Shown piece by piece: positions 1 to 55,497 of a stretch of 64,000 nucleotides of DNA (the stretch's first letter is position 1; each line of letters begins with the position of its first letter). The notes beneath the pieces were generated by a model, which ran no database searches, was not told the origin of the DNA, and saw only the letters and a list, made by a program, of their open reading frames with translations. This DNA comes from Pseudomonadales bacterium (GTDB lineage Bacteria > Pseudomonadota > Gammaproteobacteria > Pseudomonadales > GM7GCV1), in the NCBI GenBank assembly GCA_965661125.1, contig CBFICI010000002.1:195196-259195 (forward strand), given 5' to 3'. The position numbers and the translations under genes were made by a program.

Positions 1-56
1 AAGAAAACAACCAGGACGAACCCACAACCGAAAACCAACCAGGCAAGCGCAGCTAG
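1..56 (+). CDS. 3-prime end of an upstream CDS (…ENNQDEPTTENQPGKRS*). Probably the preceding Pil-Chp gene, but 18 codons are not enough to identify it
   Basis: Open frame runs off the left edge. Stop TAG at 54-56 directly abuts the chpA ATG at 57. Confidence 0.3.
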   Translation, partial: ENNQDEPTTENQPGKRS

Positions 57-5641
<5,585 letters not shown>

Positions 5642-5645
<4 letters not shown>

Positions 5646-36906: not shown

Positions 36907-36967
36907 AAATTGGCTGCTACAAGCTAAATGGAAACAGGTAGGACGTCACCCCTGTACGGGAAAGCCA

Positions 36968-37000
36968 ATAAAAAGGCCCCACCAAAAAACAGGTGAGGCC
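36968..37000 (-). terminator. Intrinsic terminator downstream of the TonB-dependent receptor
   Basis: On the minus strand: GGCCTCACC-loop-GGTGGGGCC followed by TTTTTATT. Confidence 0.65.
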
Positions 37001-37024
37001 TCTTAGGGTGGGCATCTGTGTCAA

Positions 37025-39421
37025 TTAGAAGTCGAAAGACACACGCACTCCCATGGTTCTGGGGCGCGCCACGGTAACGCGCTCTACCGCATACTGGAAG
37101 GTGCCAGAAATTTCCGCACGCTCGTCAGTCAGGTTGTCCACAAAGAGCTCGGCGCTCCAGGTATCGGTGGTCAAGCCTGCGGTGACACCCAGCAGCATCC
37201 AGCTATCCAATTCCATGCTGTTGGCCGCAACGATGTCTGTTTTTGACCCATCGGAATAGCTCAGGTGTGGCATAACATGCGCCGTACCGGCATCCACATC
37301 CCACTCGTAGCGAGCCTGGGCGTTGGCCTGAAACTCCGGAGCAAACGCCAGGTCTGACCCTTCCACCACGAAGTTGGTCACAAAGCTGTCGGTAATTTCC
37401 GTGTCGAGGAACGAGAAACCACTGCTAACCGACAAACCGCGCACGGCTTCGGGTTGCCAGATGATTTCGCCTTCCAAGCCGGTAATTTGCGCGTCTGCCG
37501 CGTTGTCGGAGAAAAACAGATTAGCAATGCTGGCATCAAAAATGCCGATCTGCATGTCGGTTACGTCAACCCGGAAAATGTCACCATTGAATCGCAGGTT
37601 GTTGTAGTCGAGCTTCCAACCCAACTCGAAGTTGGTGACGGTGTCGGTATCCATTCCGGCTGGCACCGTGTACACACCGTTAGTAGCTCCAAACGGACGG
37701 TTCAGCAGGCCCGGCCGGAAACCTTCAGACCAGGTGGCATAAAACAGCTTGCTGTCCGAAGGTGTCCAAGCCAGGCTGACTTTGCCAATCACACCGTCGG
37801 TAGAGGCCGTGTCGTTTGCACCGCTGAACAGGGTATCCAGGTTGTTACCCGGATTGTTGTCTACCAGCTGACCCTTGTTGCCAAACGATCCCGCAGCACT
37901 GCCCAACAGGTCGACCTCAACGTCGTACCAGCGCGCGCCAAGGATAACGGCAAACTGATCAGAAAGATCGAAGGTTGCTTCACCGAACACACCGCGTTGC
38001 TCATCCGTTCGCAACACGTCATTACGCCAAAGCACGCCTTCCGGATAGGGCCCAGGATCACTCACAGTGGCACCCTGAGCCGGGAAGTTTGGCCCAAAGC
38101 TTTCGGCACCCAGCAGCTCGGAACCCGTGTAGGTGAAATCGTTGCGCTCGCGCAAATCCAGGTCGCTGTAAAACACGCCGAAAGTTGCGCGCATGGCGGC
38201 GTCCGGGTCGGTCGAAAAGCGCAATTCGTGGGTCTGAACTTCAGTGTCTACCGAGCTATTTACAAACAAATATGGCGCCTGACAGGTACCACCCGTTTGA
38301 ACTGCCGAGCCATAAACCACCTGGTTATCGCAAATGTAGTAAGGCATATAGGCAGACACATAGAGGTAGTCTACGTAGTCAACCAGCTGGTTCGACTCGC
38401 GGTTTGTGAAGGCGCCTGTGTAAATGGCATCCAATGCACCAAGCCGACCTTCCAGCGTCCAGTTGAAATTGGTGAAGTCGTCTTCGAGTCGATTCTCTTC
38501 GTAGCGCTGAATTTCCAGATCGTCGAGCGCCGGGTCCTGGAAAAATACCCCTTCCGAGTCGATTGACTGCTGAGAGGCCGCAACCAGCAGGCTCCAATCA
38601 CTGTTGGGCGCCCAAAGCGCGCTGAGGCGCGAGCCCGCGTAGGTTGCTTCGTTGAAGTTGTCTTCTACCCTGCCCCCGTTATCTGCCGGGATAAAGGTAA
38701 TGGGTGCCAGGTTGGCGCCATCGGGGAATCCCGCACCGTCCGCTACGGTAACCGTGCCGGCCACGTTATCGATGTAACCACCCTGGTTGTCGACATATAC
38801 AACGCCGCGCAATGTCAGCGCATCGCTGACAGGAAGGTTGATCATTGCCTCGGCATTGTTGCTGGGCTCACCCCCGGCTGTAGCCGCCGTGCCAAACTTC
38901 ACACTGCCGTATACGCCGGTGGGGTCCGGCTTATTGGTGATCAAGCGCACCGTGCCGGCTTGCGAGCTCGCTCCAAAGAGTGTGCCCTGAGGCCCTTTCA
39001 ACACTTCGACCCGGCTCAGGTCGGCCGCGTAGACATCCAGGTTTCGCCCTGGCTGCGCAAGCGGTTGCTCGTCCAGATAAAAGGCCACGTTGGGCGCAAG
39101 ACCGGCCACACCGGAAGTGCCGGTGGCAGGGGTGGTAGAAGCCAGCCCCCGGATATAAATCGTATTTTGACCCGGGCCAACGCCGCCGGCTGTGACACCT
39201 GGCAGCTGAACCAGGTAGTCGGAAAAGTCGCTAACACCCAGTTGATCCAGCTTTTCTTGAGACATCGCGCTTACGGCGATGGGAATGTCCTGGATGGATT
39301 CAGTGCGCTTGGTTGCCGTAACCAGAATTTCTTCAATTTGCCCCTGGGCAAAAAGCTCCGGCGCGGCCATAGCGGCCGAGGCGGCAATAACAGCCGTGGT
39401 GAGTTTGGTCTTGCGAAACAT
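37025..39421 (-). CDS. TonB-dependent outer-membrane receptor
   Basis: Start at the second ATG (AAGGGGA SD). Signal peptide …ELFAQG. Plug motifs (IEEILVTATKR, DIPIAVSA). C-terminal …RVSFDF. Confidence 0.9.
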   Translation of the reverse strand: MFRKTKLTTAVIAASAAMAAPELFAQGQIEEILVTATKRTESIQDIPIAVSAMSQEKLDQLGVSDFSDYLVQLPGVTAGGVGPGQNTIYIRGLASTTPATGTSGVAGLAPNVAFYLDEQPLAQPGRNLDVYAADLSRVEVLKGPQGTLFGASSQAGTVRLITNKPDPTGVYGSVKFGTAATAGGEPSNNAEAMINLPVSDALTLRGVVYVDNQGGYIDNVAGTVTVADGAGFPDGANLAPITFIPADNGGRVEDNFNEATYAGSRLSALWAPNSDWSLLVAASQQSIDSEGVFFQDPALDDLEIQRYEENRLEDDFTNFNWTLEGRLGALDAIYTGAFTNRESNQLVDYVDYLYVSAYMPYYICDNQVVYGSAVQTGGTCQAPYLFVNSSVDTEVQTHELRFSTDPDAAMRATFGVFYSDLDLRERNDFTYTGSELLGAESFGPNFPAQGATVSDPGPYPEGVLWRNDVLRTDEQRGVFGEATFDLSDQFAVILGARWYDVEVDLLGSAAGSFGNKGQLVDNNPGNNLDTLFSGANDTASTDGVIGKVSLAWTPSDSKLFYATWSEGFRPGLLNRPFGATNGVYTVPAGMDTDTVTNFELGWKLDYNNLRFNGDIFRVDVTDMQIGIFDASIANLFFSDNAADAQITGLEGEIIWQPEAVRGLSVSSGFSFLDTEITDSFVTNFVVEGSDLAFAPEFQANAQARYEWDVDAGTAHVMPHLSYSDGSKTDIVAANSMELDSWMLLGVTAGLTTDTWSAELFVDNLTDERAEISGTFQYAVERVTVARPRTMGVRVSFDF

Positions 39422-39664
39422 GATTTCCCCTTGCATGTGTTTATCGGTACTAGTTTAAAGCATATAGAGATGTATGCAATTTATTAAGCCGCAAATCAGT
39501 GATTTAGCCCAGTATTGCATCAATATCGACTAACTCCAGACCAGAAACGGCCGAAGAGGGGAAAATTATTACTATGTGCTCTATGCATTTAACTGCCTGG
39601 CATCCTCTGGTTGCCCTTGGGTCTGGTGCTAAACTGCCCCTTTACATCAGGAGATAGCTCTCAA

Positions 39665-40172: not shown

Positions 40173-41993
40173 ATGATCGAAAAACTACGCAACATCGCCA
40201 TCGTGGCCCACGTGGACCACGGTAAAACCACCCTCGTGGACAAATTGCTGCAGCAGTCCGGCACGCTGGACCGCAAAAACCGTGATGTTGAACGCATCAT
40301 GGATTCGAACGACCAGGAGAAAGAACGCGGTATTACTATCCTGGCCAAAAACACGGCGATCGAGTGGCAGGATTACCGCATCAACATTGTGGATACCCCG
40401 GGGCACGCCGACTTTGGCGGCGAGGTTGAGCGCGTGCTGTCGATGGTCGACTCGGTGTGCCTGTTGGTAGACGCGGTCGACGGCCCCATGCCGCAAACCC
40501 GCTTTGTGACACAGAAAGCCTTCGAGCGCGGCTTGAAGCCGATCCTGGTTATCAACAAGGTCGACCGCGAAGGTGCGCGCCCTCACTGGGTGCTGGACCA
40601 GGTTTTCGATCTGTTCGACCGGCTCGGCGCTACCGACGAGCAACTGGATTTTCCGGTTATCTACGCTTCAGCCATCAACGGCGTGGCCGGCAACGAGGCC
40701 GACGAACTGGCCGACGACATGACGCCGCTTTTTCAACTTATTACCGAGCATGTTCCGCCGCCTCCGGTCGACCCCGAAGGCGCTTTCCAGATGCAAATCT
40801 CGGCACTTGACTACAGCAGCTATGTGGGCGTTATCGGTATCGGTCGTATTGCCCGCGGCAGCCTGAAAACCAACCAGCAGGTTGTGGTGGTTCCGCCGGA
40901 AGGAAAGCAGCGCAAAGCAAAAGTACTTCAGGTAATGGGGTACCACGGCCTGGAACGGCGCGAGACCAGTCTGGCCAGCGCCGGTGACATTGTGTGCATT
41001 ACCGGCATTGAAGGGCTGGGTATTTCCGACACCCTGTGCGACCCGGAATCCGTTGAGGCCCTGCCGCCACTGAGCGTGGACGAGCCCACCGTGAGCATGA
41101 CCTTTCAGGTAAACGATTCGCCCTTCGCCGGGCGTGAAGGCAAGTTTGTTACTTCGCGAAATATCAAGGAACGGCTCGACCAGGAGCTGATTCACAACGT
41201 GGCCCTGCGAGTAAAACAGGGAGACACACCCGATAAGTTCCGCGTTTCCGGCCGCGGCGAGCTGCACCTGTCGGTGCTAATTGAAACCATGCGCCGGGAA
41301 GGTTTCGAGCTGGGCGTATCGCGCCCGGAAGTTGTGCAGAAGGAAGTGGATGGCGAAATTCACGAGCCCTTCGAGCAGGTCATTATCGACATTGAAGAGC
41401 AGCACCAGGGTGCCGTGATGGAAGCCATGGGCCTGCGCCGCGGCGACCTGAAAAACATGGAACCCGACGGCAAAGGCCGGGTGAAGCTGGAATACCTGAT
41501 TCCCTCGCGTGGCCTGATTGGTTTCCGCGGCGAGTTCCTCACCCTCACCTCGGGTGGCGGCATTATGACCAGCGTATTTGACCACTACGGCCCGGTAAAA
41601 ATGGGCGAAGTGGCAAGCCGCATCAACGGCGTGCTGGTGTCCATGGTGAAGGGCAAAACTCTGGCCTACGCATTGTTTGCTCTCCAGGATCGCGGCCGCC
41701 TGTTCCTTGGCCACGGCGAAGACATTTACGAGGGGCAGATTGTCGGCCTACACTCCCGCGGTAACGACCTGGTCGTTAACCCGACCAAGGCCAAGCAACT
41801 CACCAACATTCGCGCCGCCGGCACCGACGAGGCACTTACCCTGTCGCCGCCGGTGAAATTCACCCTGGAGCAGGCACTGGAGTTCATCGAAGACGATGAG
41901 CTGGTTGAGGTAACACCCCAGTCTATTCGCCTGCGCAAGAAACTATTGACAGAAAACGAGCGCAAGCGCGCCGGTCGCAGCAAAGAAGGCTAG
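40173..41993 (+). CDS. typA: Translational GTPase TypA/BipA
   Basis: 606 aa. [18 protein letters not shown] and [14 protein letters not shown] motifs. Confidence 0.95.
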
Positions 41994-46292: not shown

Positions 46293-46700
46293 CTACTTTT
46301 TGTCTTCTTCCTCGGCCGGGGCTTCTTCCTCGGCCGGGGCTTCTTCCTCGGCCGGGGCTTCTTCCTCGGCCGGGGCTTCTTCCTCGGCCGGAGCTTCTTC
46401 CTCGGCTGGAGCTTCTTCCTCGGCTGGAGCTTCTTCCTCGGCTGGAGCTTCTTCCTCGGCTGGAGCTTCTTCTTCGGCTGCAGCTTCTTCCGCTGCAGCT
46501 TCTTCCGCTGCGGCCTCTTCCGCCGGCGCTTCTTCTACCGGCTCAGGCTTGGGTTCCGGCGCTGTAATCAGGCCTTCGGCGGCAAGAACAGAAATCTTGT
46601 CTTCGGCATTTACCGGTTGGCCCTTGCGGGTTTTAACGGCAAATCGGCCATCGCGGCGTTTGTAAATTTTGTGGCTGTCTGTGGTTTTAACCAGTTCCAT
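46293..46700 (-). CDS. Small protein: basic ~45-aa N-terminal domain plus an acidic (APAEEE)n repeat tail. Unknown function
   Basis: Start at ATG 46700 (AAGGTGA SD). MELVKTTDSHKIYKRRDGRFAVKTRKGQPVN…, then PEPKPEPVEE, (EEAAA)3, 9x APAEEE and DKK. Confidence 0.7.
   Translation of the reverse strand: MELVKTTDSHKIYKRRDGRFAVKTRKGQPVNAEDKISVLAAEGLITAPEPKPEPVEEAPAEEAAAEEAAAEEAAAEEEAPAEEEAPAEEEAPAEEEAPAEEEAPAEEEAPAEEEAPAEEEAPAEEEAPAEEEDKK
46304..46483. repeat. 18-bp coding tandem repeat, ~10 units, two sequence subtypes (…ggccgggg x4, …ggctggag x4)
   Basis: cttcttcctcggccgggg / cttcttcctcggctggag units read directly. Confidence 0.95.
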
Positions 46701-46832
46701 GCTACTCACCTTTGTTTTCACGGGTTGAAAGGAGCGCGCACATTACTGCCTGACGCGATAGTTGGCAAGCATCGAGGCACTGGCTTCTGGTACCATGCGC
46801 GCCCTGCTTACAACTGCAATTGCTGCCCGCCC

Positions 46833-48768: not shown

Positions 48769-48792
48769 AAAAAAAAGGCGCCTTTCGGCGCC
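48769..48792. terminator. Hairpin GGCGCC-tttc-GGCGCC with an A8 run on its 5-prime side. Reads as a strong intrinsic terminator on the minus strand and a weak one for uup
   Basis: Read directly. There is no T-run on the plus-strand 3-prime side (TAATGG). Confidence 0.55.
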
Positions 48793-49106
48793 TAATGGAG
48801 AGATTTCACAGGAGGGGGGAAGTGAAACCTGTCAGGGGAGTGGCCAGACTATTCCCAAAACGGGTTTGGAAACGGAACCAGGTCACATTCCCAATCGAAA
48901 TTGCGCGTGGAATCAAAAGCGAAGCTTAAAAAACGTGACTTACCACAAACTTTCGGGTTTTCCGCAAAATCATTGACTTAGCTGCTGTTATCGAACGTTG
49001 TTCAACTGTTAACTTGAGTTAGAAGGTGCAAATAGCCGTAAACCCTTTAGTAGTATGCTCATCCACAACTATTTACTGTAACTACAAACAAAAACGGGGT
49101 ATCACC

Positions 49107-49409
49107 ATGAAAAAGTTGATCGCATTCGCCAGCTTGCTGGCAGCCAGCTCAGCTTTCGCACACACACCACTGTTTGACTGCTTTGACAACGGCGACGGCA
49201 CCGCACTATGCGAAGGCGCCTTTTCTGACGGTGGCAGCGCTTCTGGCGTTGGCATTCGCATAGAGCTGGCCAGCGGCCGGGTGCTGGCCAAAGGCGAACT
49301 GGATGAAGCCAGCAGCTACAGCTTCAGTATTCCCGAGCAGGAGTACCAGGTGGTATTTGAGGCCGGCGACGGCCACGAAATCGTGCTGCTCGGCGACGAA
49401 ATCTACTAA
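49107..49409 (+). CDS. 100-aa secreted protein whose mature N-terminus is His (AFA|HTPLFDC…). First gene of the metal cluster
   Basis: Start at MKKLIAF (the upstream 27 codons lack signal-peptide character). Two Cys near the N-terminus. Beta-rich C-terminal part resembles the C-terminal fold region of DUF4198 proteins. Confidence 0.7.
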   Translation: MKKLIAFASLLAASSAFAHTPLFDCFDNGDGTALCEGAFSDGGSASGVGIRIELASGRVLAKGELDEASSYSFSIPEQEYQVVFEAGDGHEIVLLGDEIY

Positions 49410-49430
49410 CCAAACCATTAGGAACTGACG

Positions 49431-50264
49431 ATGATATCTGTTAAATCAGTGGCTTCGTTCGCCCTGACGGCGGCGCTCGGTCTGGCGACTTCAGCCCAAG
49501 CCCACTTTTTGGTAGTACACACCGACGAAATGGTTTTGGCGCGCAGCAGCGACTTTGAATTTGGCATTGTTTTCACCCATGCCTTCGACGGTGGGCCCAA
49601 CATGCACCTGACAGGCATCGAAGAGTTCTATGCCATGCAGACTCGCGCCGGCGCAGACGAAATGAACCGCATCGATCTGATGGAGTACCTTCAGCCCCTC
49701 GACTGGCAGCAGGAAGACCAAACCGTGCAGGCATTCCGGGCCGCTATTCCCCGCATCACCATGCGCTCGCTGGGCGACTATCAGGTGGTGGTTCAGCCCG
49801 AACCCTATTACGAGGGCGATGAGGACATTTATATTCAGCAGGTCACCAAAGTCATCATGAACGTAGGCGGCGCGCCCACCAACTGGGACCAAACCCTGAA
49901 CTTGCCGGCCGAAATACGTCCCCTGAACAAACCCTATGTGAACTGGGAAGGCGGGCTGTTTACCGGGCAGGTACTGTCCCATGGCAAGCCGGTTGCCGGC
50001 GCTGAAATTGAGGTGGAGTACCTGAACTATCACCCCGACCTGGACGCAGGCGCTTTTACCGGCGAGCCGGTCATCACGGCGCCTCTGCCCGGCTACGAGT
50101 ACGTTAGCCTGCGTTCAGACGAAAACGGCTACTTCAGCCTGACCCTGCCCAAGGCCGGCTGGTGGGGCATTGGCGCACTGGGCGTTGGCAGCGACACCGA
50201 ACATGAAGGCAAAGAACTGTCACAAGACGCGGTTTTGTGGGTTCAGGCCAAAGCGATAGACTAG
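49431..50264 (+). CDS. DUF4198 / COG5266 (CbiK-NikK-like) periplasmic metal-uptake accessory protein, paralog A
   Basis: 277 aa. Signal peptide …TSAQA|HFLVVH. Family-typical blocks FTHAFDGGP, EPYYEG.EDIYIQQ.TKVI.NVGG, EI.PL..PY, GQVL..GKPV.GAEIEVEY, D.NGYF…PKAGWWG and LWV. Confidence 0.8.
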   Translation: MISVKSVASFALTAALGLATSAQAHFLVVHTDEMVLARSSDFEFGIVFTHAFDGGPNMHLTGIEEFYAMQTRAGADEMNRIDLMEYLQPLDWQQEDQTVQAFRAAIPRITMRSLGDYQVVVQPEPYYEGDEDIYIQQVTKVIMNVGGAPTNWDQTLNLPAEIRPLNKPYVNWEGGLFTGQVLSHGKPVAGAEIEVEYLNYHPDLDAGAFTGEPVITAPLPGYEYVSLRSDENGYFSLTLPKAGWWGIGALGVGSDTEHEGKELSQDAVLWVQAKAID

Positions 50265-50292
50265 GCTGCACAAACTCAATTGAGGTAGGTAT

Positions 50293-51138
50293 ATGAGATT
50301 ATCATTCGGGCTCGCGGCCGCAATGTTTCTGGCCGCCCAGGTTCAGGCCCACACCGTGGTGATGCACGCGCCGGAAATGGCGGTCGAACGCGCCACTGAC
50401 ATGCAAATGCCCCTGGTATTTACCCATGCCACCGACGGCGGCCCCACTATGCCGATGGAAATTGAGTCCTTCAGCCTGCACACCGGTCGGCAGTTTTTCA
50501 TGGAAGAGATAGACCTGATGGACACGCTGGAGCCGGTACAGTGGCTGAACCGGGTGAACGAAGACGGCAGTGAAGACCGGGTAGACGCCTTTGTAGCCAA
50601 CATTCCCCGCGATACCATTCGTTCGCTGGGCGACCATCAGTTTATGCTGGTTACCAAGCCCTACTACGACCCCAACGATGAGATCTATATTCAGCAGTTT
50701 GTGAAGATGATCTACAACGTGGGCGGCGCCCAGACCAACTGGCACAGCAGCCTGGGCGTTGATACGGAGATTCATCTGTTCAAAACACCCTACGCCAACT
50801 GGGTAGGGGAAACCGTCAAGGGCGTGGTGTATTCCGACGGCGAACCTATGCCCTATTCGCGTCTGGAAATTGACTACCTGAACTACCAACCCGATATGGA
50901 AAATCTTCGCTTCGCCGAGGAACCCCGCATCGAACACAGCCACCCCAGCTACAACTACATTTCCATCATGACCGACAAGGACGGCGAGTTTGTGTTTGGT
51001 ATTCCTCATGCAGGCTGGTGGGCACTCAGCGCCCTGGGCGTGGGGCCCGAATACAACATTGACGGCACCTACCTGTCGCAGGATGCCATTCTGTGGATTT
51101 ATGCAGAGGATGTGCCGGTTGGAGCGGGAAGCCTGTGA
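50293..51138 (+). CDS. DUF4198 / COG5266 periplasmic protein, paralog B
   Basis: 281 aa. Signal peptide …AQVQA|HTVVMH. Shares FTHA.DGGP, RSLGD, PYY, EIYIQQ, NVGGA.TNW, YLNY.PD, AGWW, ALGVG and LSQDA.LW blocks with paralog A. Confidence 0.8.
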   Translation: MRLSFGLAAAMFLAAQVQAHTVVMHAPEMAVERATDMQMPLVFTHATDGGPTMPMEIESFSLHTGRQFFMEEIDLMDTLEPVQWLNRVNEDGSEDRVDAFVANIPRDTIRSLGDHQFMLVTKPYYDPNDEIYIQQFVKMIYNVGGAQTNWHSSLGVDTEIHLFKTPYANWVGETVKGVVYSDGEPMPYSRLEIDYLNYQPDMENLRFAEEPRIEHSHPSYNYISIMTDKDGEFVFGIPHAGWWALSALGVGPEYNIDGTYLSQDAILWIYAEDVPVGAGSL

Positions 51139-51746
51139 GCCAGGCGACTACGGTAAAGGCCAGCAATAGCCGCTGGGAAGTTGCGCTGCTGATTGCCGGC
51201 GTGGTGGGCATGCTGGCAGCCACCGGATTCTACGTGCTGAAATATGGCCGCAGCGAGCAGGTGCAGGAAATTCAGCCCTGGCAGGTCAGCGCCTATTCCG
51301 ATCTAGGCGTCACCGACCAGGCCATTTATAACGCGCTGGTAACAGCTCAGGAAGACATTGCCTGGATTCAGTACGCCGAAGGCCCCTGGCCCAATATCGC
51401 TACGCTGGAAGACTTTCTGGTGGCGCCTTTTGCCCGGGACTTTTTCTGGGAAAACAACGGGCAGCTGGAATGGGGTTTTCGCGATGTGGTGCAGGAAGGC
51501 GAGATGCAGGGTTACACCATGTACCACGGCAACAACGGAACCATTGAGGGCCAAAGCGCCTACATACTGGTGATCGGTCACCTGCATGCCGGCAACAACA
51601 TGGCCAACCACAACACCATCTGGGTGCATGACAACCCCCAGCAAGGCATGCCCAAAACGTCCACCCAGCAGTCTCTGATTCTGGAAGGCTGGAAAAATGT
51701 GGTGCCCTACACTGGCAAGAACGAGATGGAACGGTTGCAGGATTAG
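51135..51746 (+). CDS. N-terminally membrane-anchored protein of unknown family with a His-rich C-terminal patch
   Basis: GTG start overlapping the preceding stop (GTGA). One TM (WEVALLIAGVVGMLAATGFYVL). The ~160-aa extracytoplasmic domain contains GHLHAGNNMANHNTIWVHD. Confidence 0.65.
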   Translation: MSQATTVKASNSRWEVALLIAGVVGMLAATGFYVLKYGRSEQVQEIQPWQVSAYSDLGVTDQAIYNALVTAQEDIAWIQYAEGPWPNIATLEDFLVAPFARDFFWENNGQLEWGFRDVVQEGEMQGYTMYHGNNGTIEGQSAYILVIGHLHAGNNMANHNTIWVHDNPQQGMPKTSTQQSLILEGWKNVVPYTGKNEMERLQD

Positions 51747-51773
51747 CTGCACCGAACCAACAACGAGGTACCT

Positions 51774-52688
51774 ATGAATAGATTGATTGCTTCATTGCTA
51801 ATTGCTTTAACTGCGCCACTGGCAGCGGCCCAGAGCGCCGACCGCCTGACGGTGGGGATTACACTGCACCCCTATTACAGCTTTGTCGCCAATATTGTGC
51901 AGGATCGCGCAGATATTCTGCCGCTGATTCAGGCCGGCTATAACCCACACGGCTACAGCGCCCAGCCAGAAGACATCAAGCGCGCCATGGACATGGACGT
52001 GATTGTGATGAACGGCATTGGCCACGACAGCTGGGCCGACGAGGTGCTGCAGGCAGCCGGGCGAGACGAGCGTGACCTGCCGCGCATTTACGCCAACAGC
52101 GCCGTGGCTTTGATGCCGGTTTCAGGCAAAGACCAAACGGTGAACTCGCACACCTTTATTTCCACCACGGCGGCCATTGCGCAAATCTACGAGATTGCCA
52201 AGCAGCTGGGTGTTTACGACCCGCAAAATGCCGATTTCTACCGTGCCAATGCACGTGAATACGCCACTAACCTGCGACGTATCAAGGCCGAATATATGCC
52301 AGAGATTGCCAGCATCGACGCCAGCAACTTCCGCGCAGCCACCATGCACGGCGCCTACGGCTACCTGATGCAGGAATTTGGCCTGCAAATTACCGCCGTG
52401 GTAGAGCCGCGCCACGGAGTAGAACCTACCGCCCGCCAGCTGGCCGAAACCGTCGATGAAATTAATGCGTCGGGCGTGAATATTCTGTTCGCCGAGCGCT
52501 TCTTCGCCAGCAAGCTGGCCGACACCCTGGAGGCGGAAACCAATGTGCGCATTTTCAGCTTTTCTCATATTTCCGACGGTGAATATAACGCTGACCATTT
52601 CGAAGAAGAGATGCGCTACAACATTGAAGAACTTCGTGCAGCGCTGGAATACAGCGTGGCTCAACCCCTGGCACAGGCGACAAATTAA
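51774..52688 (+). CDS. Cluster A-I (ZnuA/TroA-type) metal ABC transporter substrate-binding protein
   Basis: 304 aa. Signal peptide …PLAAAQS. Ligand-position histidines in GITLHPYY, YNPHGY and TMHGAYGY. No His-rich loop. Confidence 0.85.
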   Translation: MNRLIASLLIALTAPLAAAQSADRLTVGITLHPYYSFVANIVQDRADILPLIQAGYNPHGYSAQPEDIKRAMDMDVIVMNGIGHDSWADEVLQAAGRDERDLPRIYANSAVALMPVSGKDQTVNSHTFISTTAAIAQIYEIAKQLGVYDPQNADFYRANAREYATNLRRIKAEYMPEIASIDASNFRAATMHGAYGYLMQEFGLQITAVVEPRHGVEPTARQLAETVDEINASGVNILFAERFFASKLADTLEAETNVRIFSFSHISDGEYNADHFEEEMRYNIEELRAALEYSVAQPLAQATN

Positions 52689-53398
52689 TGGGCCCGAAAA
52701 TTAGCGTAAAAAATCTCAACCTGACACTTGGTACCACCCGGGTTCTGGACAGCGTTGACCTTGAAGCAAAGCCGGGCGAGGTGCACTGCATTATCGGCCC
52801 CAATGGCGGCGGCAAAACCTCTACCCTGCGTTGCATCCTCGGGCAAATGCCGCACACCGGCGACATCGAGTTCGAATGGGAAGTGAACGAAACCATCGGT
52901 TACATTCCCCAGGTACTGGAGTTCGACCGTTTTCTGCCGGTCACCGTGAACAACTTTATGGCCATGACCGTGCAAACCACCCCGGCCTTTTTCGGCCTGC
53001 GCGGAATTTTTAAGGATGAGGTGCACAACGCGCTGAAACGCCTGGGCCTTGAAGGCAAAGAAAAACGCATGATGGGCAGCCTGTCTGGCGGCGAAAAACA
53101 GCGCTTGCTGTTTGCCCAAGCACTGGTGCCCGAGCCCTCCCTGATTATTCTCGACGAACCTATGACCGCCCTCGACGAAGCCGGCATGACGGTTTTTGAA
53201 GAGCTGATCATCGAGCTGAAAAACGAGGGCAAAACCATCTTGTGGGTAAACCACGACATGGAACAGGTAGGCCGCCTGTCCGACACCATCACGGTGGTAG
53301 ACACCCAGGTGATCGCTCATGGCCCAACCCAAACCACACTCACCGAATCGATGCGCCACGGCAATTTCCGCGGCGACCTGAAAGGAGTGGCAGCATAA
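52688..53398 (+). CDS. Metal ABC transporter ATP-binding protein (ZnuC-like)
   Basis: 236 aa. GPNGGGKTS Walker A, LSGGEKQR, IILDEP. TAATG overlap on both sides. Confidence 0.9.
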   Translation: MGPKISVKNLNLTLGTTRVLDSVDLEAKPGEVHCIIGPNGGGKTSTLRCILGQMPHTGDIEFEWEVNETIGYIPQVLEFDRFLPVTVNNFMAMTVQTTPAFFGLRGIFKDEVHNALKRLGLEGKEKRMMGSLSGGEKQRLLFAQALVPEPSLIILDEPMTALDEAGMTVFEELIIELKNEGKTILWVNHDMEQVGRLSDTITVVDTQVIAHGPTQTTLTESMRHGNFRGDLKGVAA

Positions 53399-54279
53399 TG
53401 GGTATGGAAGCACTGCAAATGGAACTGCAGATGATGGGTTACCGGCTGAACTATGCCTTTGTGATTAACGCCATCATTTGCGCCCTCATTATTGGCCCGC
53501 TGCTGGGCGCCCTGGGCACCATGGTGGTGGCCAAACGCATGGCCTTTTTCTCGCAGGCCGTGGGCAACGCGGCGCTAACCGGCGTTGGCATTGGTGTACT
53601 AATCGGTGAGTCTTACACCTCGCCCTATGTCTCTATGTTCAGCTTCTGTATTTTGTTTGCGCTGCTGCTGAACTTCACCCGCAACCACACCAAGATGTCG
53701 TCCGACACACTGATTGGTGTGTTCCTGTCGATATCCCTGGCGTTGGGCGCTTCCCTGCTGCTGTTTATTTCGGCCAAGGTGAATACGCACATACTGCAAA
53801 CCATTCTGTTCGGTTCAATTCTTACAGTCAGCAAGACAGACATTGCCGTGCTTAGCGTGGTGGCCGTTATTCTGCTGGCCGTGGGTATTCCGCTGTTCAA
53901 CAAAATGCTGTTGGCCAGCCTGAACCCGGCGCTTGCCCACGTGCGCGGCGTGCGGGTTCAGCTGATGGAGTACATTTTTGTGCTGATGATTACCATCATC
54001 ACCGTGGCCTGCGTGAAAATTATCGGCGCGGTGCTGGTGGAAGCGCTGCTGCTGATTCCCGCTGCGGCTGCACGCAACCTGAACAAATCGCTGGGCGGCT
54101 TTGTGCTGTGGAGCATGATTTTCTCCCTCAGCAGCTGCCTGCTGGGTATCACCATACCCATGCTGTTCGATATTCCGGTTCCGTCCGGCGGCGCCATCAT
54201 TCTGGTGGCAGCAACCTTCTTCCTCATTACCAGCCTGATGCGCGGACTGCTGCCCCAGTTCAAGGAAGCCAAAATATGA
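53398..54279 (+). CDS. Metal ABC transporter permease (ZnuB-like, ABC-3 family)
   Basis: 293 aa from MGMEALQ… 8-9 TM segments. Typical AFV.NA……G..G..VV..RM.F.S.A pattern. Confidence 0.88.
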   Translation: MGMEALQMELQMMGYRLNYAFVINAIICALIIGPLLGALGTMVVAKRMAFFSQAVGNAALTGVGIGVLIGESYTSPYVSMFSFCILFALLLNFTRNHTKMSSDTLIGVFLSISLALGASLLLFISAKVNTHILQTILFGSILTVSKTDIAVLSVVAVILLAVGIPLFNKMLLASLNPALAHVRGVRVQLMEYIFVLMITIITVACVKIIGAVLVEALLLIPAAAARNLNKSLGGFVLWSMIFSLSSCLLGITIPMLFDIPVPSGGAIILVAATFFLITSLMRGLLPQFKEAKI

Positions 54280-55196
54280 TGCGTTTTCGCCCGCTTCTGC
54301 TGATACCGGTACTTTTTCTGCTGGCCGCCTGTGGCAGCAATCCGGCCATGCAGTCCGAACCGATAGCCGAAAGCACACCTCTGGTGCTTACTTCAGTGGC
54401 GCCCATTTACAGCATGACGGCCGCCCTGCTGGCAGACACCCCTGTTGAGGTGCAAAACGTTCCCGAACGCGCCCGCAGCATGGGATCGCAGCCCACCTGG
54501 TTTCGCACCCAGGGCGAAACCTTTGAGGCCCAGTTCGAACAGGCAGATGCGGTGGTTAGCATGGATCACCTGTGGCATCAGGACCCGCTTTACGTGGCCA
54601 CTCGCGAGCGCAATGTGCGGGTTGTTCAAATAGACGCCACCCTGCCCTTTTCGTCCCAGGCCACAGGCGTATCGGTTGTAAATTCGGGCGCCGATGGATT
54701 TGCCCTGCCCATGTTCTGGTTGAGCCCGGCCAATGTGATTCGCTCTACCAAATTGATAGCAACCGACCTTCAACGGCTGTACCCCGAGCAAGCCGAACAA
54801 ATTCGCGCCAATGCACAGGCCATCACTTCGGCTTTGCTGGCTGAAAAGGCCAGGGGCGAAGCGCAATTGCTGCAAGTGGCCGACCCATTTGTTTATGCCC
54901 TGGCCGATGAATTCGATTACGTCACCAATGAATTCGGCATCTTTGTAGATGGCTACTTTATCAAGCAGGACTTGGACTGGACCGAAGAAGACCTGGCCAA
55001 CCTCAGCCAGCATTTGCAGGACTGGGACATTCCCGTGGTGATTCACAAGTGGGAACCGTCTGATGCCATCAAGCAGGCCATTGCCGACGGCGGCGCCGAA
55101 TTGGTGATTCTGGATACCTACGAAACCGCCAGCACCTCGCTGCAGGACCTGTCCATGGGCAACATCAACAAGCTTCTGGCGGCGCTGGCCGAGTAG
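54276..55196 (+). CDS. Second ZnuA-fold binding-protein paralog: a lipoprotein lacking the canonical His ligands
   Basis: 306 aa. Lipobox LLAAC. ATGA overlap with the permease. Collinear with the first SBP, but the ligand positions read SVAPIY, GSQPTW and DPFVYA. Confidence 0.7.
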   Translation: MMRFRPLLLIPVLFLLAACGSNPAMQSEPIAESTPLVLTSVAPIYSMTAALLADTPVEVQNVPERARSMGSQPTWFRTQGETFEAQFEQADAVVSMDHLWHQDPLYVATRERNVRVVQIDATLPFSSQATGVSVVNSGADGFALPMFWLSPANVIRSTKLIATDLQRLYPEQAEQIRANAQAITSALLAEKARGEAQLLQVADPFVYALADEFDYVTNEFGIFVDGYFIKQDLDWTEEDLANLSQHLQDWDIPVVIHKWEPSDAIKQAIADGGAELVILDTYETASTSLQDLSMGNINKLLAALAE

Positions 55197-55209
55197 CGAC
55201 CCAAATTAA

Positions 55210-55476
55210 GTGTCAGACTCCCTGCGAAGCAGGGGTCTGATGCTGAGCGACGAAGTATGGGCTGCCAGCATCTGACCCCTGCCGGGGTCAGACACTTCCG
55301 GTGCTGAACGACGAAGTACGGGCTGCCAGCATCTGACCCCTGAAGGGGTCAGACACTTCCCGTACGGAGTCAAAAGCTATCTCGATTGAAGTGTCAGACT
55401 CCCTGCGAAGCAGGGGTCTGATGCTGAAATACGAAGTGCGAGCTACCAGCATCTGACCCCTGCCGGGGTCAGACAC
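55210..55476. repeat. REP-like mosaic, cluster B (5 elements of two subtypes in alternating orientation)
   Basis: Subtype 1, GTGTCAGACTCCCTGCGAAGCAGGGGTCTGATGCTG, at 55210-55245 and 55391-55426. Subtype 2, CAGCATCTGACCCCTG(CC/AA)GGGGTCAGACAC, at 55266-55295, 55327-55356 and 55447-55476. The spacers are themselves related (…ACGAAGT.CG.GCT.C). Confidence 0.92.
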
Positions 55477-55497
55477 TTCTCACATTCGCATCAGGCA

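What the first reader, a model, noticed from the sequence alone, without database searches (positions are those of the whole stretch)
49107..55196. Eight-gene metal-capture cluster joining DUF4198 (CbiK/NikK-like) proteins and two unknown proteins to a ZnuABC-type importer with two binding proteins
Eight same-strand genes have 0-30 nt gaps or overlapping stop/start codons (GTGA at 51135, TAATG at 52688 and 53398, ATGA at 54276). In order:
1. A 100-aa secreted protein.
2..3. Two paralogous DUF4198/COG5266 periplasmic proteins.
4. A membrane-anchored protein with a His-rich patch and no family I can recognise.
5. A ZnuA/TroA-type binding protein.
6. An ATPase.
7. A permease.
8. A second, lipoprotein-type ZnuA-fold protein.

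From established knowledge, DUF4198/COG5266 proteins are accessory periplasmic components found next to CbiMQO/NikMNQO-type Ni/Co transporters or TonB-dependent receptors. Having them in one apparent operon with a cluster A-I (Znu/Tro/Mnt-type) ABC importer plus two further unknown proteins is not a described system to my knowledge.

The cluster encodes no regulator and no outer-membrane receptor. The block lies between uup and a REP mosaic, outside the Pseudomonas-like core synteny of the rest of the window.

Inference: this is a periplasmic metal relay (Ni/Co/Zn, possibly Cu) feeding an ABC importer.
Basis: partly seen in the sequence, partly recalled or inferred. Interest (0 to 1): 0.75.

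Follow-up and report, generated by a model that had tools for sequence, protein, structure and literature searches.

The report
Fpv-like metal importer with DUF4198 partners
This eight-gene operon is a relative of the Pseudomonas FpvJKCDEF iron-import machinery in which two DUF4198 metal-binding proteins replace the usual reductase; the arrangement recurs in many uncultured bacteria, does not appear in the literature I could search, and probably hands a metal ion from protein to protein in the periplasm before pumping it into the cell.

Summary
Eight same-strand genes lie at 49107-55196 with the stated overlaps and Pfam families.

The claim that this is not a described system is only half right. 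Six of the eight genes are collinear homologues of P. aeruginosa fpvJ, fpvK, fpvC, fpvD, fpvE and fpvF.
- The first binding protein matches solved FpvC at E 3e-82 and keeps all seven histidines it shares with FpvC.
- The "unknown" membrane protein is DUF6162, the same family as FpvK.
- The 100-aa protein is an FpvJ homologue and also resembles the N-terminal half of NikL.

What differs is that the FpvG/FpvH reductase pair is absent and DUF4198 proteins sit between the fpvJ-like and fpvK-like genes. About 40 loci from uncultured Gammaproteobacteria show the same order with no exception. DUF4198 is duplicated only in the window's clade.

A palindrome, TTAAC-N-GTTAA, precedes the operon in most loci. 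No Fur, Zur, NikR, DtxR or MntR consensus and no riboswitch was found.

Best reading: a periplasmic relay of histidine-based metal sites feeds a hexa-histidine binding protein and its ABC importer. The metal is unresolved (Ni/Co, Fe(II) or Zn).

Verdict: a new variant of a known kind, of moderate interest.

The parts
48776..48793 (.). GC-rich hairpin flanked by an A-run and a T-run, just after the uup stop (48749). It is the likely uup terminator and marks the upstream boundary of the unit.
   Evidence: Terminator scan and direct reading of the sequence.
49002..49022 (.). Putative operator. It contains TCAACTGTTAA (49002-49012), a one-mismatch copy of the 11-bp palindrome TTAAC-N-GTTAA, and overlaps the block AACTGTTAACTTG(A/C)GTTA (49004-49022), in which every position but one is invariant in the window's clade. 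The regulator is unknown.
   Evidence: It is the best hit of the derived matrix in the whole 64-kb window. TTAAC-N1-GTTAA with at most one mismatch occurs in 22 of 34 upstream regions, against 0.22 in shuffles. TAACnGTTA occurs in 9 of 11 loci that were not used to derive the motif. All 11 perfect copies in 587 kb of held sequence lie in loci of this cluster; those I checked lie before the g1-like gene. Clade footprint.
49051..49056 (+). TAGTAT, a -10-like hexamer inside the conserved block T.TAGTAG.AT. The promoter assignment is an inference.
   Evidence: Alignment of five upstream regions from the window's clade. The consensus sigma-70 scan itself found no promoter.
49107..49409 (+). g1: secreted 100-aa FpvJ homologue. 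Its domain also resembles the N-terminal half of NikL. The predicted mature N-terminus is His (AFA|HTP). Two Cys and a GDGH motif are invariant.
   Evidence: 35% identity to P. aeruginosa FpvJ, E 4e-14. Invariant H19, C25, C35 and H90. All 9 family members, FpvJ included, hit NF058648 positions 2-87 of 180, below the cut-off. The single-sequence model is a 7-strand beta sandwich with pLDDT 58.
49431..50264 (+). g2: periplasmic DUF4198 protein. The predicted mature N-terminus is His (AQA|HFL). A second His (H50) is invariant.
   Evidence: Pfam PF10670, E 5e-46. Invariant H25, H50 and M58 in 13 sequences. A family profile reaches the solved 274-aa chains 9mhi/9mhk at E 1e-5.
50293..51138 (+). 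g3: second DUF4198 protein, 45% identical to g2 (VQA|HTV). This duplication is found only in the window's clade.
   Evidence: Pfam, E 3e-32. A second copy is present only in L001-L003, L025-L027 and L054.
51135..51746 (+). g4: DUF6162 protein and FpvK homologue. It has one N-terminal membrane helix followed by an alpha/beta domain that carries EGEMQG and an HxH motif (H149, H151).
   Evidence: Pfam PF19659. 25% identity to FpvK over the full length, E 3e-11. A fused P. aeruginosa gene call carries PF19659 plus PF01297. Model pLDDT 80, helix 13-37, no fold match in the PDB. An H-x-H pattern is present in 48 of 108 full-length family representatives and absent from FpvK.
51774..52688 (+). g5: FpvC-type cluster A-I binding protein with a predicted hexa-histidine metal site.
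   Evidence: E 3e-82 to PDB 6R3Z, 6R44, 6R5S and 6RU4. These are P. aeruginosa FpvC, because the PDB sequence retrieves a 100%-identical P. aeruginosa protein. 46% identity, E 4e-93. H32, 59, 84, 126, 192, 214 and 265 are conserved with FpvC and with all orthologues sampled. The six-His site of 6R3Z is described in bioRxiv 10.1101/2025.10.04.680417.
52688..53398 (+). g6: ABC ATPase, FpvD homologue.
   Evidence: Pfam ABC_tran. 49% identity to FpvD, E 3e-83.
53398..54279 (+). g7: ABC-3 permease, FpvE homologue.
   Evidence: Pfam ABC-3, E 2e-49. 55% identity to FpvE, E 4e-99.
54276..55196 (+). g8: FpvF-type second binding protein. It has the ZnuA fold but none of the metal-ligand histidines. It carries a lipobox (LLAAC|GS) here, but not in most orthologues.
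   Evidence: 32% identity to FpvF, E 4e-35. Pfam ZnuA, 58 bits. None of the seven His columns of g5/FpvC is a His in g8, FpvF or six orthologues. N-termini compared.
55208..55479 (.). Repeat mosaic: three copies of a 91-nt unit built from 17-22-nt inverted repeats. It marks the downstream boundary of the unit.

Best explanation
The block is one operon. It encodes a variant of the FpvJKCDEF machinery in which the FpvG/FpvH membrane reductase pair is missing and DUF4198 proteins have been inserted.

Proposed mechanism:
1. A free divalent transition-metal ion in the periplasm is captured by secreted proteins whose mature N-terminus is a histidine. These are the two DUF4198 proteins g2 and g3 and the small FpvJ/NikL-like protein g1.
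2. The ion is passed to the hexa-histidine binding protein g5 (FpvC type).
3. g5 docks on the permease g7, which is driven by the ATPase g6.
4. g4 (DUF6162/FpvK type, with an HxH motif) is a membrane-anchored member of the relay.
5. g8 (FpvF type, no metal ligands) partners g5, as FpvF partners FpvC.
6. Expression is set by an unidentified regulator that binds TTAAC-N-GTTAA in front of g1.

Shown here: the homologies, the conserved gene order, the conserved candidate ligand residues and the operator.

Inferred: the direction of transfer, the roles of g1, g4 and g8, and the metal. My ranking of the metal is Ni(II)/Co(II) about 0.35, Fe(II) about 0.3 and Zn(II) about 0.2.
For: Homology and collinearity with fpvJ, K, C, D, E and F:
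- E-values are 4e-14, 3e-11, 4e-93, 3e-83, 4e-99 and 4e-35, against the P. aeruginosa locus L024.
- g5 matches solved FpvC at E 3e-82 and keeps all seven shared His.
- g8 and FpvF keep none of them.
- In P. aeruginosa, FpvJ, FpvC and FpvF form a periplasmic complex, and FpvC is proposed to carry Fe2+ to FpvDE (PMC6954188).

Operon status:
- Overlapping stop and start codons.
- The same order g1, DUF4198, DUF6162, C, D, E, F in about 40 loci, down to 35-43% DUF6162 identity.

Candidate metal sites:
- A predicted mature N-terminal His is invariant in the g1/FpvJ and DUF4198 alignments.
- DUF4198 proteins have been shown to bind Zn (Zcp, PMC12663993) and Ni, the latter through an N-terminal His with Kd 18 nM (PMC12537917).
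- The pairing of g1 with DUF4198 mirrors the NikL plus NikK accessory pair of NikKMLQO nickel transporters.
- The HxH motif of DUF6162 was seen in every DUF4198-linked member inspected and is missing from FpvK.

Regulation:
- The operator is specific and conserved.
- No Fur or Zur consensus was found. This argues against classical iron or zinc control and fits a different metal or sensor.
Against: - No metal binding, transport or expression was measured.
[quoted passage not shown] DUF4198 need not feed an importer.
- FpvK showed no interaction in two-hybrid screens.
- The g1 model has low confidence (pLDDT 58) and neither g1 nor g4 has a structural match, so their roles rest on conserved residues and gene context alone.
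- The membrane orientation of g4 was not determined.
- The Fur, Zur and NikR checks used consensus strings recalled from memory, not taxon-specific matrices.
- A TonB-dependent receptor or a reductase encoded elsewhere in the genome cannot be excluded.
Confidence: 0.5

Rival explanations
1. The job is the same as in Pseudomonas: unloading of iron from a ferric siderophore, followed by Fe(II) import. g8 would bind the (xeno)siderophore as FpvF binds pyoverdine, and g5 would take the Fe(II). Reduction would be done by a PepSY-type reductase, and outer-membrane entry by a TonB-dependent receptor, both encoded elsewhere. DUF4198 and g1 would assist the hand-over.
For: - FpvC binds ferrous iron and FpvF binds pyoverdine.
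- g5 and g8 are their homologues.
- DUF4198 genes are induced by iron limitation next to TonB receptors and PepSY proteins in Alteromonas (PMC7190382) and in other bacteria.
- In L028 a site resembling the operator lies about 150 nt upstream of a TonB-dependent receptor 3 kb from the cluster.
- Another locus has a receptor about 4 kb away.
Against: - There is no FpvG or FpvH homologue in the window or in any of the cluster flanks inspected.
- There are no siderophore genes nearby.
- No Fur-box signal was found in 23 upstream regions.
- The flanking genes differ from locus to locus, and no receptor recurs.
Confidence: 0.2
2. It is a zinc-starvation importer. DUF4198 would act like Zcp as a periplasmic zinc-capture protein, here coupled to a ZnuABC-like pump. 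A MarR-type zinc sensor related to AdcR/ZitR would repress it.
For: - Zcp is a zinc-binding DUF4198 protein induced by zinc limitation.
- The nearest NCBIfam models for g5-g7 are AztC, AztA and AztB.
- The operator arms TTAAC and GTTAA are the same as in the AdcR/ZitR operator TTAACYRGTTAA (PMC6372160).
- 5 of 34 loci also have a copy with the two-base spacer.
Against: - All Znu and Azt model scores are far below their cut-offs. ZnuA scores 66.8 against a cut-off of 268, and AztC 120 against 350.
- No Zur-box signal was found.
- The main operator spacer is one base, not two.
- AdcR/ZitR is described as specific to Streptococcaceae.
- From my own knowledge, an octahedral six-His site is unusual for zinc.
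- Only two His are invariant in g2/g3, against three zinc ligands in Zcp.
Confidence: 0.15
3. g1 to g4 do not feed the importer. They would buffer or distribute periplasmic metal to envelope proteins, as proposed for Zcp, and would simply be co-expressed with an independent FpvCDEF-type importer.
For: - Zcp is dispensable for uptake and associates with envelope proteins.
- Orphan NikK and NikL homologues exist without NikMQO (PMC2667541).
Against: - The order is strict and there are translational overlaps across the g3/g4 and g4/g5 region.
- About 40 loci show no case of g1, DUF4198 and DUF6162 separated from C, D, E and F.
- FpvJ, the g1 homologue, binds FpvC and FpvF physically.
- The HxH motif of DUF6162 tracks the presence of DUF4198.
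Confidence: 0.1

Closest known systems
P. aeruginosa FpvGHJKCDEF (PA2403-PA2410): periplasmic iron release from pyoverdine, plus the FpvCDEF ABC importer with two binding proteins
   Same: - Six collinear homologues are shared: fpvJ, K, C, D, E and F.
- The first binding protein keeps the histidines of the FpvC hexa-His protein.
- The second binding protein has the ZnuA fold but no metal ligands, and lies after the permease.
- A small secreted protein and a single-pass DUF6162 membrane protein are encoded upstream.
   Different: - There is no FpvG (PepSY_TM reductase) and no FpvH (PF27732).
- One or two DUF4198 genes are inserted between the J-like and K-like genes.
- The DUF6162 protein carries EGEMQG and HxH motifs that FpvK lacks.
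- The cluster is not in a pyoverdine locus.
- A different upstream operator is present, and the derived matrix finds no site in the Pseudomonas locus.
- g8 is a lipoprotein in this clade.
DUF4198 proteins: Zcp of N. gonorrhoeae, IsDUF4198 of Ideonella sakaiensis, and NikK of NikKMLQO transporters
   Same: - Pfam family membership is clear.
- They are secreted, with a histidine at the predicted mature N-terminus.
- They are linked to transition-metal handling.
   Different: - Zcp is a stand-alone Zur-regulated gene that is not needed for uptake.
- IsDUF4198 neighbours TonB receptors and NikR.
- NikK works with an ECF-type NikMQO transporter.
- Here DUF4198 is embedded in an operon for a cluster A-I ABC importer, which none of the 17 papers that mention DUF4198 appears to describe (four of them read).
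NikL (HI1622 family, NF058648), accessory subunit of NikKMLQO nickel/cobalt ECF transporters
   Same: - g1 and FpvJ align to positions 2-87 of the 180-position model.
- g1 is paired with a NikK-like DUF4198 protein, as NikL is paired with NikK.
   Different: - g1 is only 100 aa and lacks the C-terminal half of NikL.
- It scores 40 bits against a cut-off of 100.
- No NikM, NikQ or NikO is present.
Chaperone-assisted zinc importers: AztABCD of Paracoccus (AztD to AztC) and ZinT-ZnuA
   Same: The concept is the same: an accessory periplasmic metal-binding protein hands the ion to a cluster A-I binding protein. The nearest NCBIfam models for g5-g7 are AztC, AztA and AztB.
   Different: - All scores are below the cut-offs.
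- No AztD or ZinT homologue is present.
- The ligand set differs (six His).
- There are additional partners: g1, g4 and g8.
AdcR/ZitR operator TTAACYRGTTAA (MarR-type zinc repressors of Streptococcaceae)
   Same: - The 5-bp inverted arms are identical.
- One or two copies lie in front of an operon for a cluster A-I metal importer.
   Different: - The spacer is one base in most loci (22 of 34) and two bases in only 5 of 34.
- The host bacteria are Gammaproteobacteria.
- No regulator gene is linked to the cluster.

Membership tests
FpvCDEF-type two-binding-protein ABC importer with FpvJ/FpvK accessories | A cluster A-I binding protein homologous to FpvC that has the hexa-histidine site | tested here: met
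   E 3e-82 to PDB 6R3Z. 46% identity. All seven His shared with FpvC are conserved in g5 and its orthologues. Which six of them ligate the metal was not mapped on the structure.
FpvCDEF-type two-binding-protein ABC importer with FpvJ/FpvK accessories | A second ZnuA-fold binding protein (FpvF type) without metal ligands, encoded after the permease | tested here: met
   32% identity to FpvF, E 4e-35. No His at any of the seven ligand-candidate columns.
FpvCDEF-type two-binding-protein ABC importer with FpvJ/FpvK accessories | FpvD ATPase and FpvE ABC-3 permease lying between the two binding-protein genes | tested here: met
   49% and 55% identity, in the same order.
FpvCDEF-type two-binding-protein ABC importer with FpvJ/FpvK accessories | FpvJ (small secreted protein) and FpvK (DUF6162, single-pass) encoded upstream | tested here: met
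   g1 to FpvJ, E 4e-14. g4 to FpvK, E 3e-11. Both g4 and FpvK are PF19659.
FpvGHJKCDEF pyoverdine iron-release machinery | FpvG (PepSY_TM inner-membrane reductase) and FpvH (PF27732) in the operon | tested here: not met
   tblastn finds no meaningful hit in the 64-kb window: FpvG gives none, and FpvH gives only a 25-residue match at E 0.009. Neither was seen in any related locus annotated or searched.
FpvGHJKCDEF pyoverdine iron-release machinery | Functional link to pyoverdine: location in a pvd locus, FpvF binding pyoverdine, iron-dependent control | tested here: not met
   The P. aeruginosa locus has pvd-type neighbours (thioesterase, MbtH, aminotransferase). The window has uup and patatin/slyX/tatC as neighbours instead. 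No Fur consensus was found. Ligand binding by g8 cannot be tested with these tools.
DUF4198 (PF10670) | Pfam model match above the gathering score | tested here: met
   157.8 and 112.9 bits against a cut-off of 34.
DUF4198 (PF10670) | Signal peptide followed by an N-terminal histidine; the N-terminal histidine is a metal ligand in IsDUF4198 | tested here: met
   AQA|H and VQA|H. H25 is invariant in 13 sequences. The cleavage site is predicted from the A-x-A pattern, not measured.
DUF4198 (PF10670) | The three-histidine zinc site of Zcp | tested here: inconclusive
   Only two His are invariant, H25 and H50. The family profile aligns to the solved chains only over positions 125-196, so the Zcp ligands could not be mapped.
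NikL (NF058648) / NikKMLQO ECF nickel transporter | Full-length match above the curated cut-off, and presence of NikM, NikQ and NikO | tested here: not met
   40.4 bits against a cut-off of 100, covering only positions 2-87 of 180. No ECF components are present in the cluster. The similarity is at domain level only.
ZnuABC / AztABCD zinc importers | Equivalog-level model scores, a Zur box, and AztD or ZinT as partner | tested here: not met
   ZnuA scores 66.8 against 268, AztC 120.4 against 350, AztA 144.6 against 220 and AztB 116.5 against 280. There is no Zur consensus above shuffles. No AztD or ZinT is present in the cluster.
AdcR/ZitR-controlled operons | Operator TTAACYRGTTAA (two-base spacer) and a MarR-type zinc repressor | tested here: not met
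   The dominant spacer is one base (22 of 34 loci), with two bases in 5 of 34. No regulator is linked to the cluster. Whether a MarR-type protein binds the site cannot be tested here.

The most novel reading that the evidence does not exclude
The trio of FpvJ/NikL-like protein, DUF4198 and HxH-bearing DUF6162 is a self-contained cascade of periplasmic metal chaperones built on N-terminal histidine sites. It loads a hexa-histidine binding protein directly, without a siderophore or a reductase. This would define a distinct, widespread class of chaperone-assisted cluster A-I importers in environmental Gammaproteobacteria, controlled by a new metal-sensing regulator that binds TTAAC-N-GTTAA. It would also imply that FpvJ and FpvK in Pseudomonas are metal-transfer components rather than helpers of the reductase.
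Probability: 0.35. Interest if true: 0.7.

Novelty: new variant of a known kind. Interest (0 to 1): 0.55.

Why it matters
FpvJ and FpvK have had no assigned function since they were named (PMC6954188). DUF4198 has more than 9,000 members. It was first characterised only in 2025, and that work concluded it is not needed for uptake (PMC12663993).

This cluster ties all three to one importer in a reductase-free setting. It also points to specific residues that can be tested:
- the N-terminal His of g1, g2 and g3
- the HxH motif of g4
- the shared histidines of g5

It therefore gives a simple system for asking how metal ions are handed between periplasmic proteins. It also gives a candidate uptake route for a scarce trace metal in marine and soil Gammaproteobacteria that are known mostly from metagenomes. 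The conserved operator is a handle for finding the regulator, and through it the metal.

Tried and rejected
- **Riboswitch or leader RNA in the 357-nt uup-g1 spacer.** No Rfam hit at the gathering threshold or at E up to 5.
- **Known metal-regulator boxes.** I compared Fur, Zur (three forms), DtxR, E. coli NikR, MntR and Irr consensus strings with 23 upstream regions. None exceeded shuffled controls. The consensus strings came from memory.
- **Reading the operator as a response-regulator box.** I first read it as direct repeats TTAAC-N6-TTAAC, like the BqsR box TTAAG-N6-TTAAG, or like ArcA and PmrA boxes recalled from memory. The spacer analysis fits an 11-bp palindrome better, so I dropped this as the leading reading. 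It is not excluded.
- **The 22-column matrix.** It missed the sites of L028 and L029, which have a different arrangement of the same arms. The simple palindrome count is the better descriptor.
- **Solved structures related to g1.** The sequence-profile search gave nothing significant; CopC scored E 0.24. The fold search of the low-confidence model returned only generic Ig-like sandwiches.
- **Fold search for g4.** No match; the best E was 0.3.
- **phmmer of g2 against the PDB.** It found nothing. Only a family profile reached the DUF4198 structures.
- **The FpvC structure paper (FEBS J 2020).** It is not held in the library. The six-His site is cited from a secondary source and from memory.
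- **Metagenome scans with broad DUF6162 alignments.** A three-sequence alignment worked.
- **Recent horizontal acquisition.** Rejected: the composition is unremarkable and the chromosomal position is conserved in a relative.
- **Literature search for the operator sequence.** It returned only primers and vectors.

Full report
**1. Observation**

The eight + strand ORFs exist at the stated coordinates. The four overlapping junctions were read directly from the sequence: GTGA at 51135, TAATG at 52686 and 53396, and ATGA at 54276. The other gaps are 21-28 nt. Gene callers working on metagenomic contigs that encode the identical DUF6162 protein give the same eight products of 100, 277, 281, 203, 304, 236, 293 and 306 aa.

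Pfam confirms DUF4198 twice, ZnuA twice, ABC_tran and ABC-3. It also places g4 in DUF6162 (PF19659), so g4 is not without a family. NCBIfam scores for g5-g7 fall well below every equivalog cut-off. The nearest models are AztC, AztA and AztB.

The unit is bounded upstream by a terminator-like hairpin after uup at 48776-48793. It is bounded downstream by a repeat mosaic at 55208-55479. No riboswitch or other Rfam family is present.

**2. What it is**

The decisive result came from searching solved structures. g5 matches PDB 6R3Z, 6R44, 6R5S and 6RU4 ("probable adhesion protein") at E 3e-82. That PDB sequence retrieves a 100%-identical P. aeruginosa protein. One fused P. aeruginosa gene call carries DUF6162 and ZnuA together, which shows that the gene upstream of fpvC encodes a DUF6162 protein.

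The P. aeruginosa locus (L024) reads, in order:
- PepSY_TM protein, 403 aa (FpvG)
- PF27732 protein, 179 aa (FpvH)
- a 109-aa protein with no Pfam match (FpvJ)
- DUF6162 protein, 186 aa (FpvK)
- ZnuA (FpvC)
- ABC_tran (FpvD)
- ABC-3 (FpvE)
- ZnuA (FpvF)

BLASTP of the window proteins against these gives:

| Window protein | Fpv homologue | Identity | E-value |
|---|---|---|---|
| g1 | FpvJ | 35% | 4e-14 |
| g4 | FpvK | 25% (full length) | 3e-11 |
| g5 | FpvC | 46% | 4e-93 |
| g6 | FpvD | 49% | 3e-83 |
| g7 | FpvE | 55% | 4e-99 |
| g8 | FpvF | 32% | 4e-35 |

There is no FpvG or FpvH homologue anywhere in the window. The cluster is therefore fpvJ-like, DUF4198, DUF4198, then fpvK-, C-, D-, E- and F-like.

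The FpvCDEF importer with two binding proteins, and the FpvJ-FpvC-FpvF periplasmic complex, are described for pyoverdine-iron uptake (PMC6954188; PMC9569983).

**3. Conservation**

A scan of one genome per species, using a DUF6162 alignment, returned 23 loci. All are metagenome-assembled genomes. Their labels are Cellvibrionales, Porticoccaceae, Spongiibacteraceae, Pseudomonadales, Steroidobacteraceae, Ca. Rariloculaceae, unclassified Gammaproteobacteria and three labelled Rhodospirillaceae.

In every locus long enough, the order is g1, DUF4198, DUF6162, FpvC-like, ATPase, permease, FpvF-like. This holds even where DUF6162 identity is only 37-43%. Further examples came from contig look-ups. 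Twelve more came from a metagenome scan seeded with a DUF6162 subgroup that lacks the EGEMQG motif. In total this is roughly 40 loci with no exception, although some may be the same organism sampled twice.

DUF4198 is duplicated only in the window's clade (L001-L003, L025-L027, L054). In a relative with 66% DUF6162 identity the cluster sits at the same chromosomal position: uup, cluster, patatin, slyX, tatCBA, hisIE, ubiB. G+C content is unremarkable. The cluster is therefore not a recent island.

DUF6162 as a whole is a small family. It has 233 clusters at 50% identity among 1.84 billion representatives.

**4. Residues**

- **g5.** It shares seven histidines with FpvC: H32, 59, 84, 126, 192, 214 and 265. 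All are conserved in the orthologues sampled. FpvC has a six-His metal site (on 6R3Z). From my own recollection of Vigouroux et al. 2020, that site stabilises Fe2+ and binds a broad range of divalent ions reversibly.
- **g8, FpvF and six orthologues.** None has a histidine at any of these columns.
- **g1 and FpvJ.** They share an invariant histidine at the predicted mature N-terminus (A-x-A|H), two invariant cysteines, and a G-x-G-H motif near the C-terminus.
- **NikL link.** All nine members of that alignment, FpvJ included, match the N-terminal half of the NikL model NF058648. The best E is 4e-14 and all scores are below the cut-off.
- **g2 and g3.** They also begin with a histidine after the signal peptide and share an invariant second histidine, H50. 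This fits the report that 79% of DUF4198 proteins have an N-terminal His, which ligates Ni in IsDUF4198 (PMC12537917).
- **g4.** The model (pLDDT 80) has a membrane helix at 13-37 and an alpha/beta domain with no structural relative. In the alignment of 26 close relatives H149 and H151 are invariant and the EGEMQG residues invariant or nearly so. Across the wider family an H-x-H pattern occurs in 48 of 108 full-length representatives, but not in FpvK. The HxH-bearing subgroup I could trace to genomes is always in the DUF4198-type operon.

**5. Regulation**

Motif search in the 23 upstream regions found a recurrent element. It is best described as the 11-bp palindrome TTAAC-N-GTTAA, often in two adjacent copies.

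- It occurs with at most one mismatch in 22 of 34 upstream regions, against 0.22 expected from shuffles.
- TAACnGTTA occurs in 9 of 11 loci that were not used to find the motif, against 0.03 expected.
- All 11 perfect copies in 587 kb of held sequence fall in loci of this cluster, and those I checked lie before the g1-like gene, against about 0.6 expected by chance.
- In the window, the best matrix hit of all 64 kb is here. The copy TCAACTGTTAA at 49002-49012 overlaps a block that is all but invariant in the clade (49004-49022). A conserved -10-like TAGTAT follows at 49051-49056.

No Fur, Zur, DtxR, NikR, MntR or Irr consensus stands out.

The arms equal those of the AdcR/ZitR operator TTAACYRGTTAA (PMC6372160), but the spacer is one base rather than two. 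No paper in the library mentions the palindrome as a regulatory site. The regulator is unknown and is not encoded next to the cluster.

**6. Mechanism**

I propose a periplasmic relay:
1. The N-terminal-His proteins g2/g3 and g1 capture a divalent metal ion.
2. They pass it to the hexa-His protein g5, which delivers it to g7/g6.
3. g4 is the membrane-anchored member of the relay.
4. g8 is a ligand-free partner of g5.

Homology, gene order, conserved residues and the operator are shown here. The transfer steps and the roles of g1, g4 and g8 are inferred from the Fpv interaction data and from gene context.

The metal is unresolved:
- **Ni/Co.** Favoured by the NikK/NikL-like pair, by the nanomolar Ni affinity of IsDUF4198, by the all-nitrogen octahedral site, and by the lack of Fur and Zur signals.
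- **Fe(II).** Favoured by FpvC itself and by the iron-limitation induction of DUF4198 genes.
- **Zn.** Favoured by Zcp and by the AdcR-like operator arms.

The main caution is that Zcp, the one DUF4198 protein tested in vivo, is not needed for uptake.

**7. Comparison and novelty**

The importer and its J and K accessories belong to the Fpv family by homology and gene order. The cluster fails the defining features of the pyoverdine machinery proper, because it has no FpvG/FpvH and no pvd context. It is not a ZnuABC, an AztABCD or a NikKMLQO system by their own criteria.

None of the 17 library papers that mention DUF4198 appears to link it to this importer (I read four of them), and no paper mentions DUF6162.

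I therefore rate it a new variant of a known kind. It is of moderate interest because it offers concrete, testable roles for FpvJ, FpvK and DUF4198.

Noticed in passing
window 48806-49106: Besides the palindrome, the uup-g1 spacer holds several other blocks that are invariant across the window's clade: CGGAAC..GG.TC.C near 48873-48888, AAAA..GTGA at 48927-48937, AATCA at 48969-48973 and TACTG at 49073-49077. There is no Rfam match. They could be promoter parts, a second operator or a leader RNA.
   Followed up: partly
L028:13832-13853: In this related locus the best hit of the operator matrix lies about 150 nt upstream of a TonB-dependent receptor gene, 3 kb downstream of the cluster. This could be a co-regulated outer-membrane partner. 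It is a single case.
   Followed up: no
window 46293-46721 (- strand): A 142-aa ORF upstream of uup. Its C-terminal two thirds is an acidic repeat (EEAPAE)n, encoded by an 18-nt tandem array (46304-46506, 11.4 copies, 95% matches). The listed 857-aa uup ORF overlaps it only through a spurious N-terminal extension. The 638-aa uup gene call on related contigs implies that uup starts near 46833.
   Followed up: partly
window 32906-39436: Between spoT (30679-32799) and bipA (40173-41993) lie three - strand genes: a BCCT transporter, a TPR-sulfotransferase protein and a TonB-dependent receptor. In the relative L025, spoT, ridA and bipA are adjacent. This about 7-kb stretch therefore looks like an insertion specific to the window's lineage.
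   Followed up: partly
window 55208-55479: Repeat mosaic between g8 and the patatin gene: three copies of a 91-nt unit (71-92% identity) built from 17-22-nt inverted repeats such as TCTGACCCCTGCCGGGGTCAGA.
   Followed up: yes
window 57-5645: A 1862-aa hybrid CheA-like kinase with Hpt domains, HATPase_c, CheW and a receiver domain, and a Pro/Glu-rich linker. From my own knowledge this architecture resembles ChpA.
   Followed up: no
L024:3566-3895 (P. aeruginosa fpvJ): FpvJ, whose function is unknown in the literature, has a predicted mature N-terminal histidine (ALA|HNP) and matches the N-terminal half of the NikL nickel-transporter subunit model. This suggests that it is itself a metal-binding protein.
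   Followed up: partly
PDB 9mhi, 9mhk and five further entries: The solved 274-aa chains reached by the DUF4198 profile are labelled 'Phosphoribosylglycinamide formyltransferase' by their depositors. That name does not fit a DUF4198 protein. They may be the gonococcal Zcp structures.
   Followed up: no
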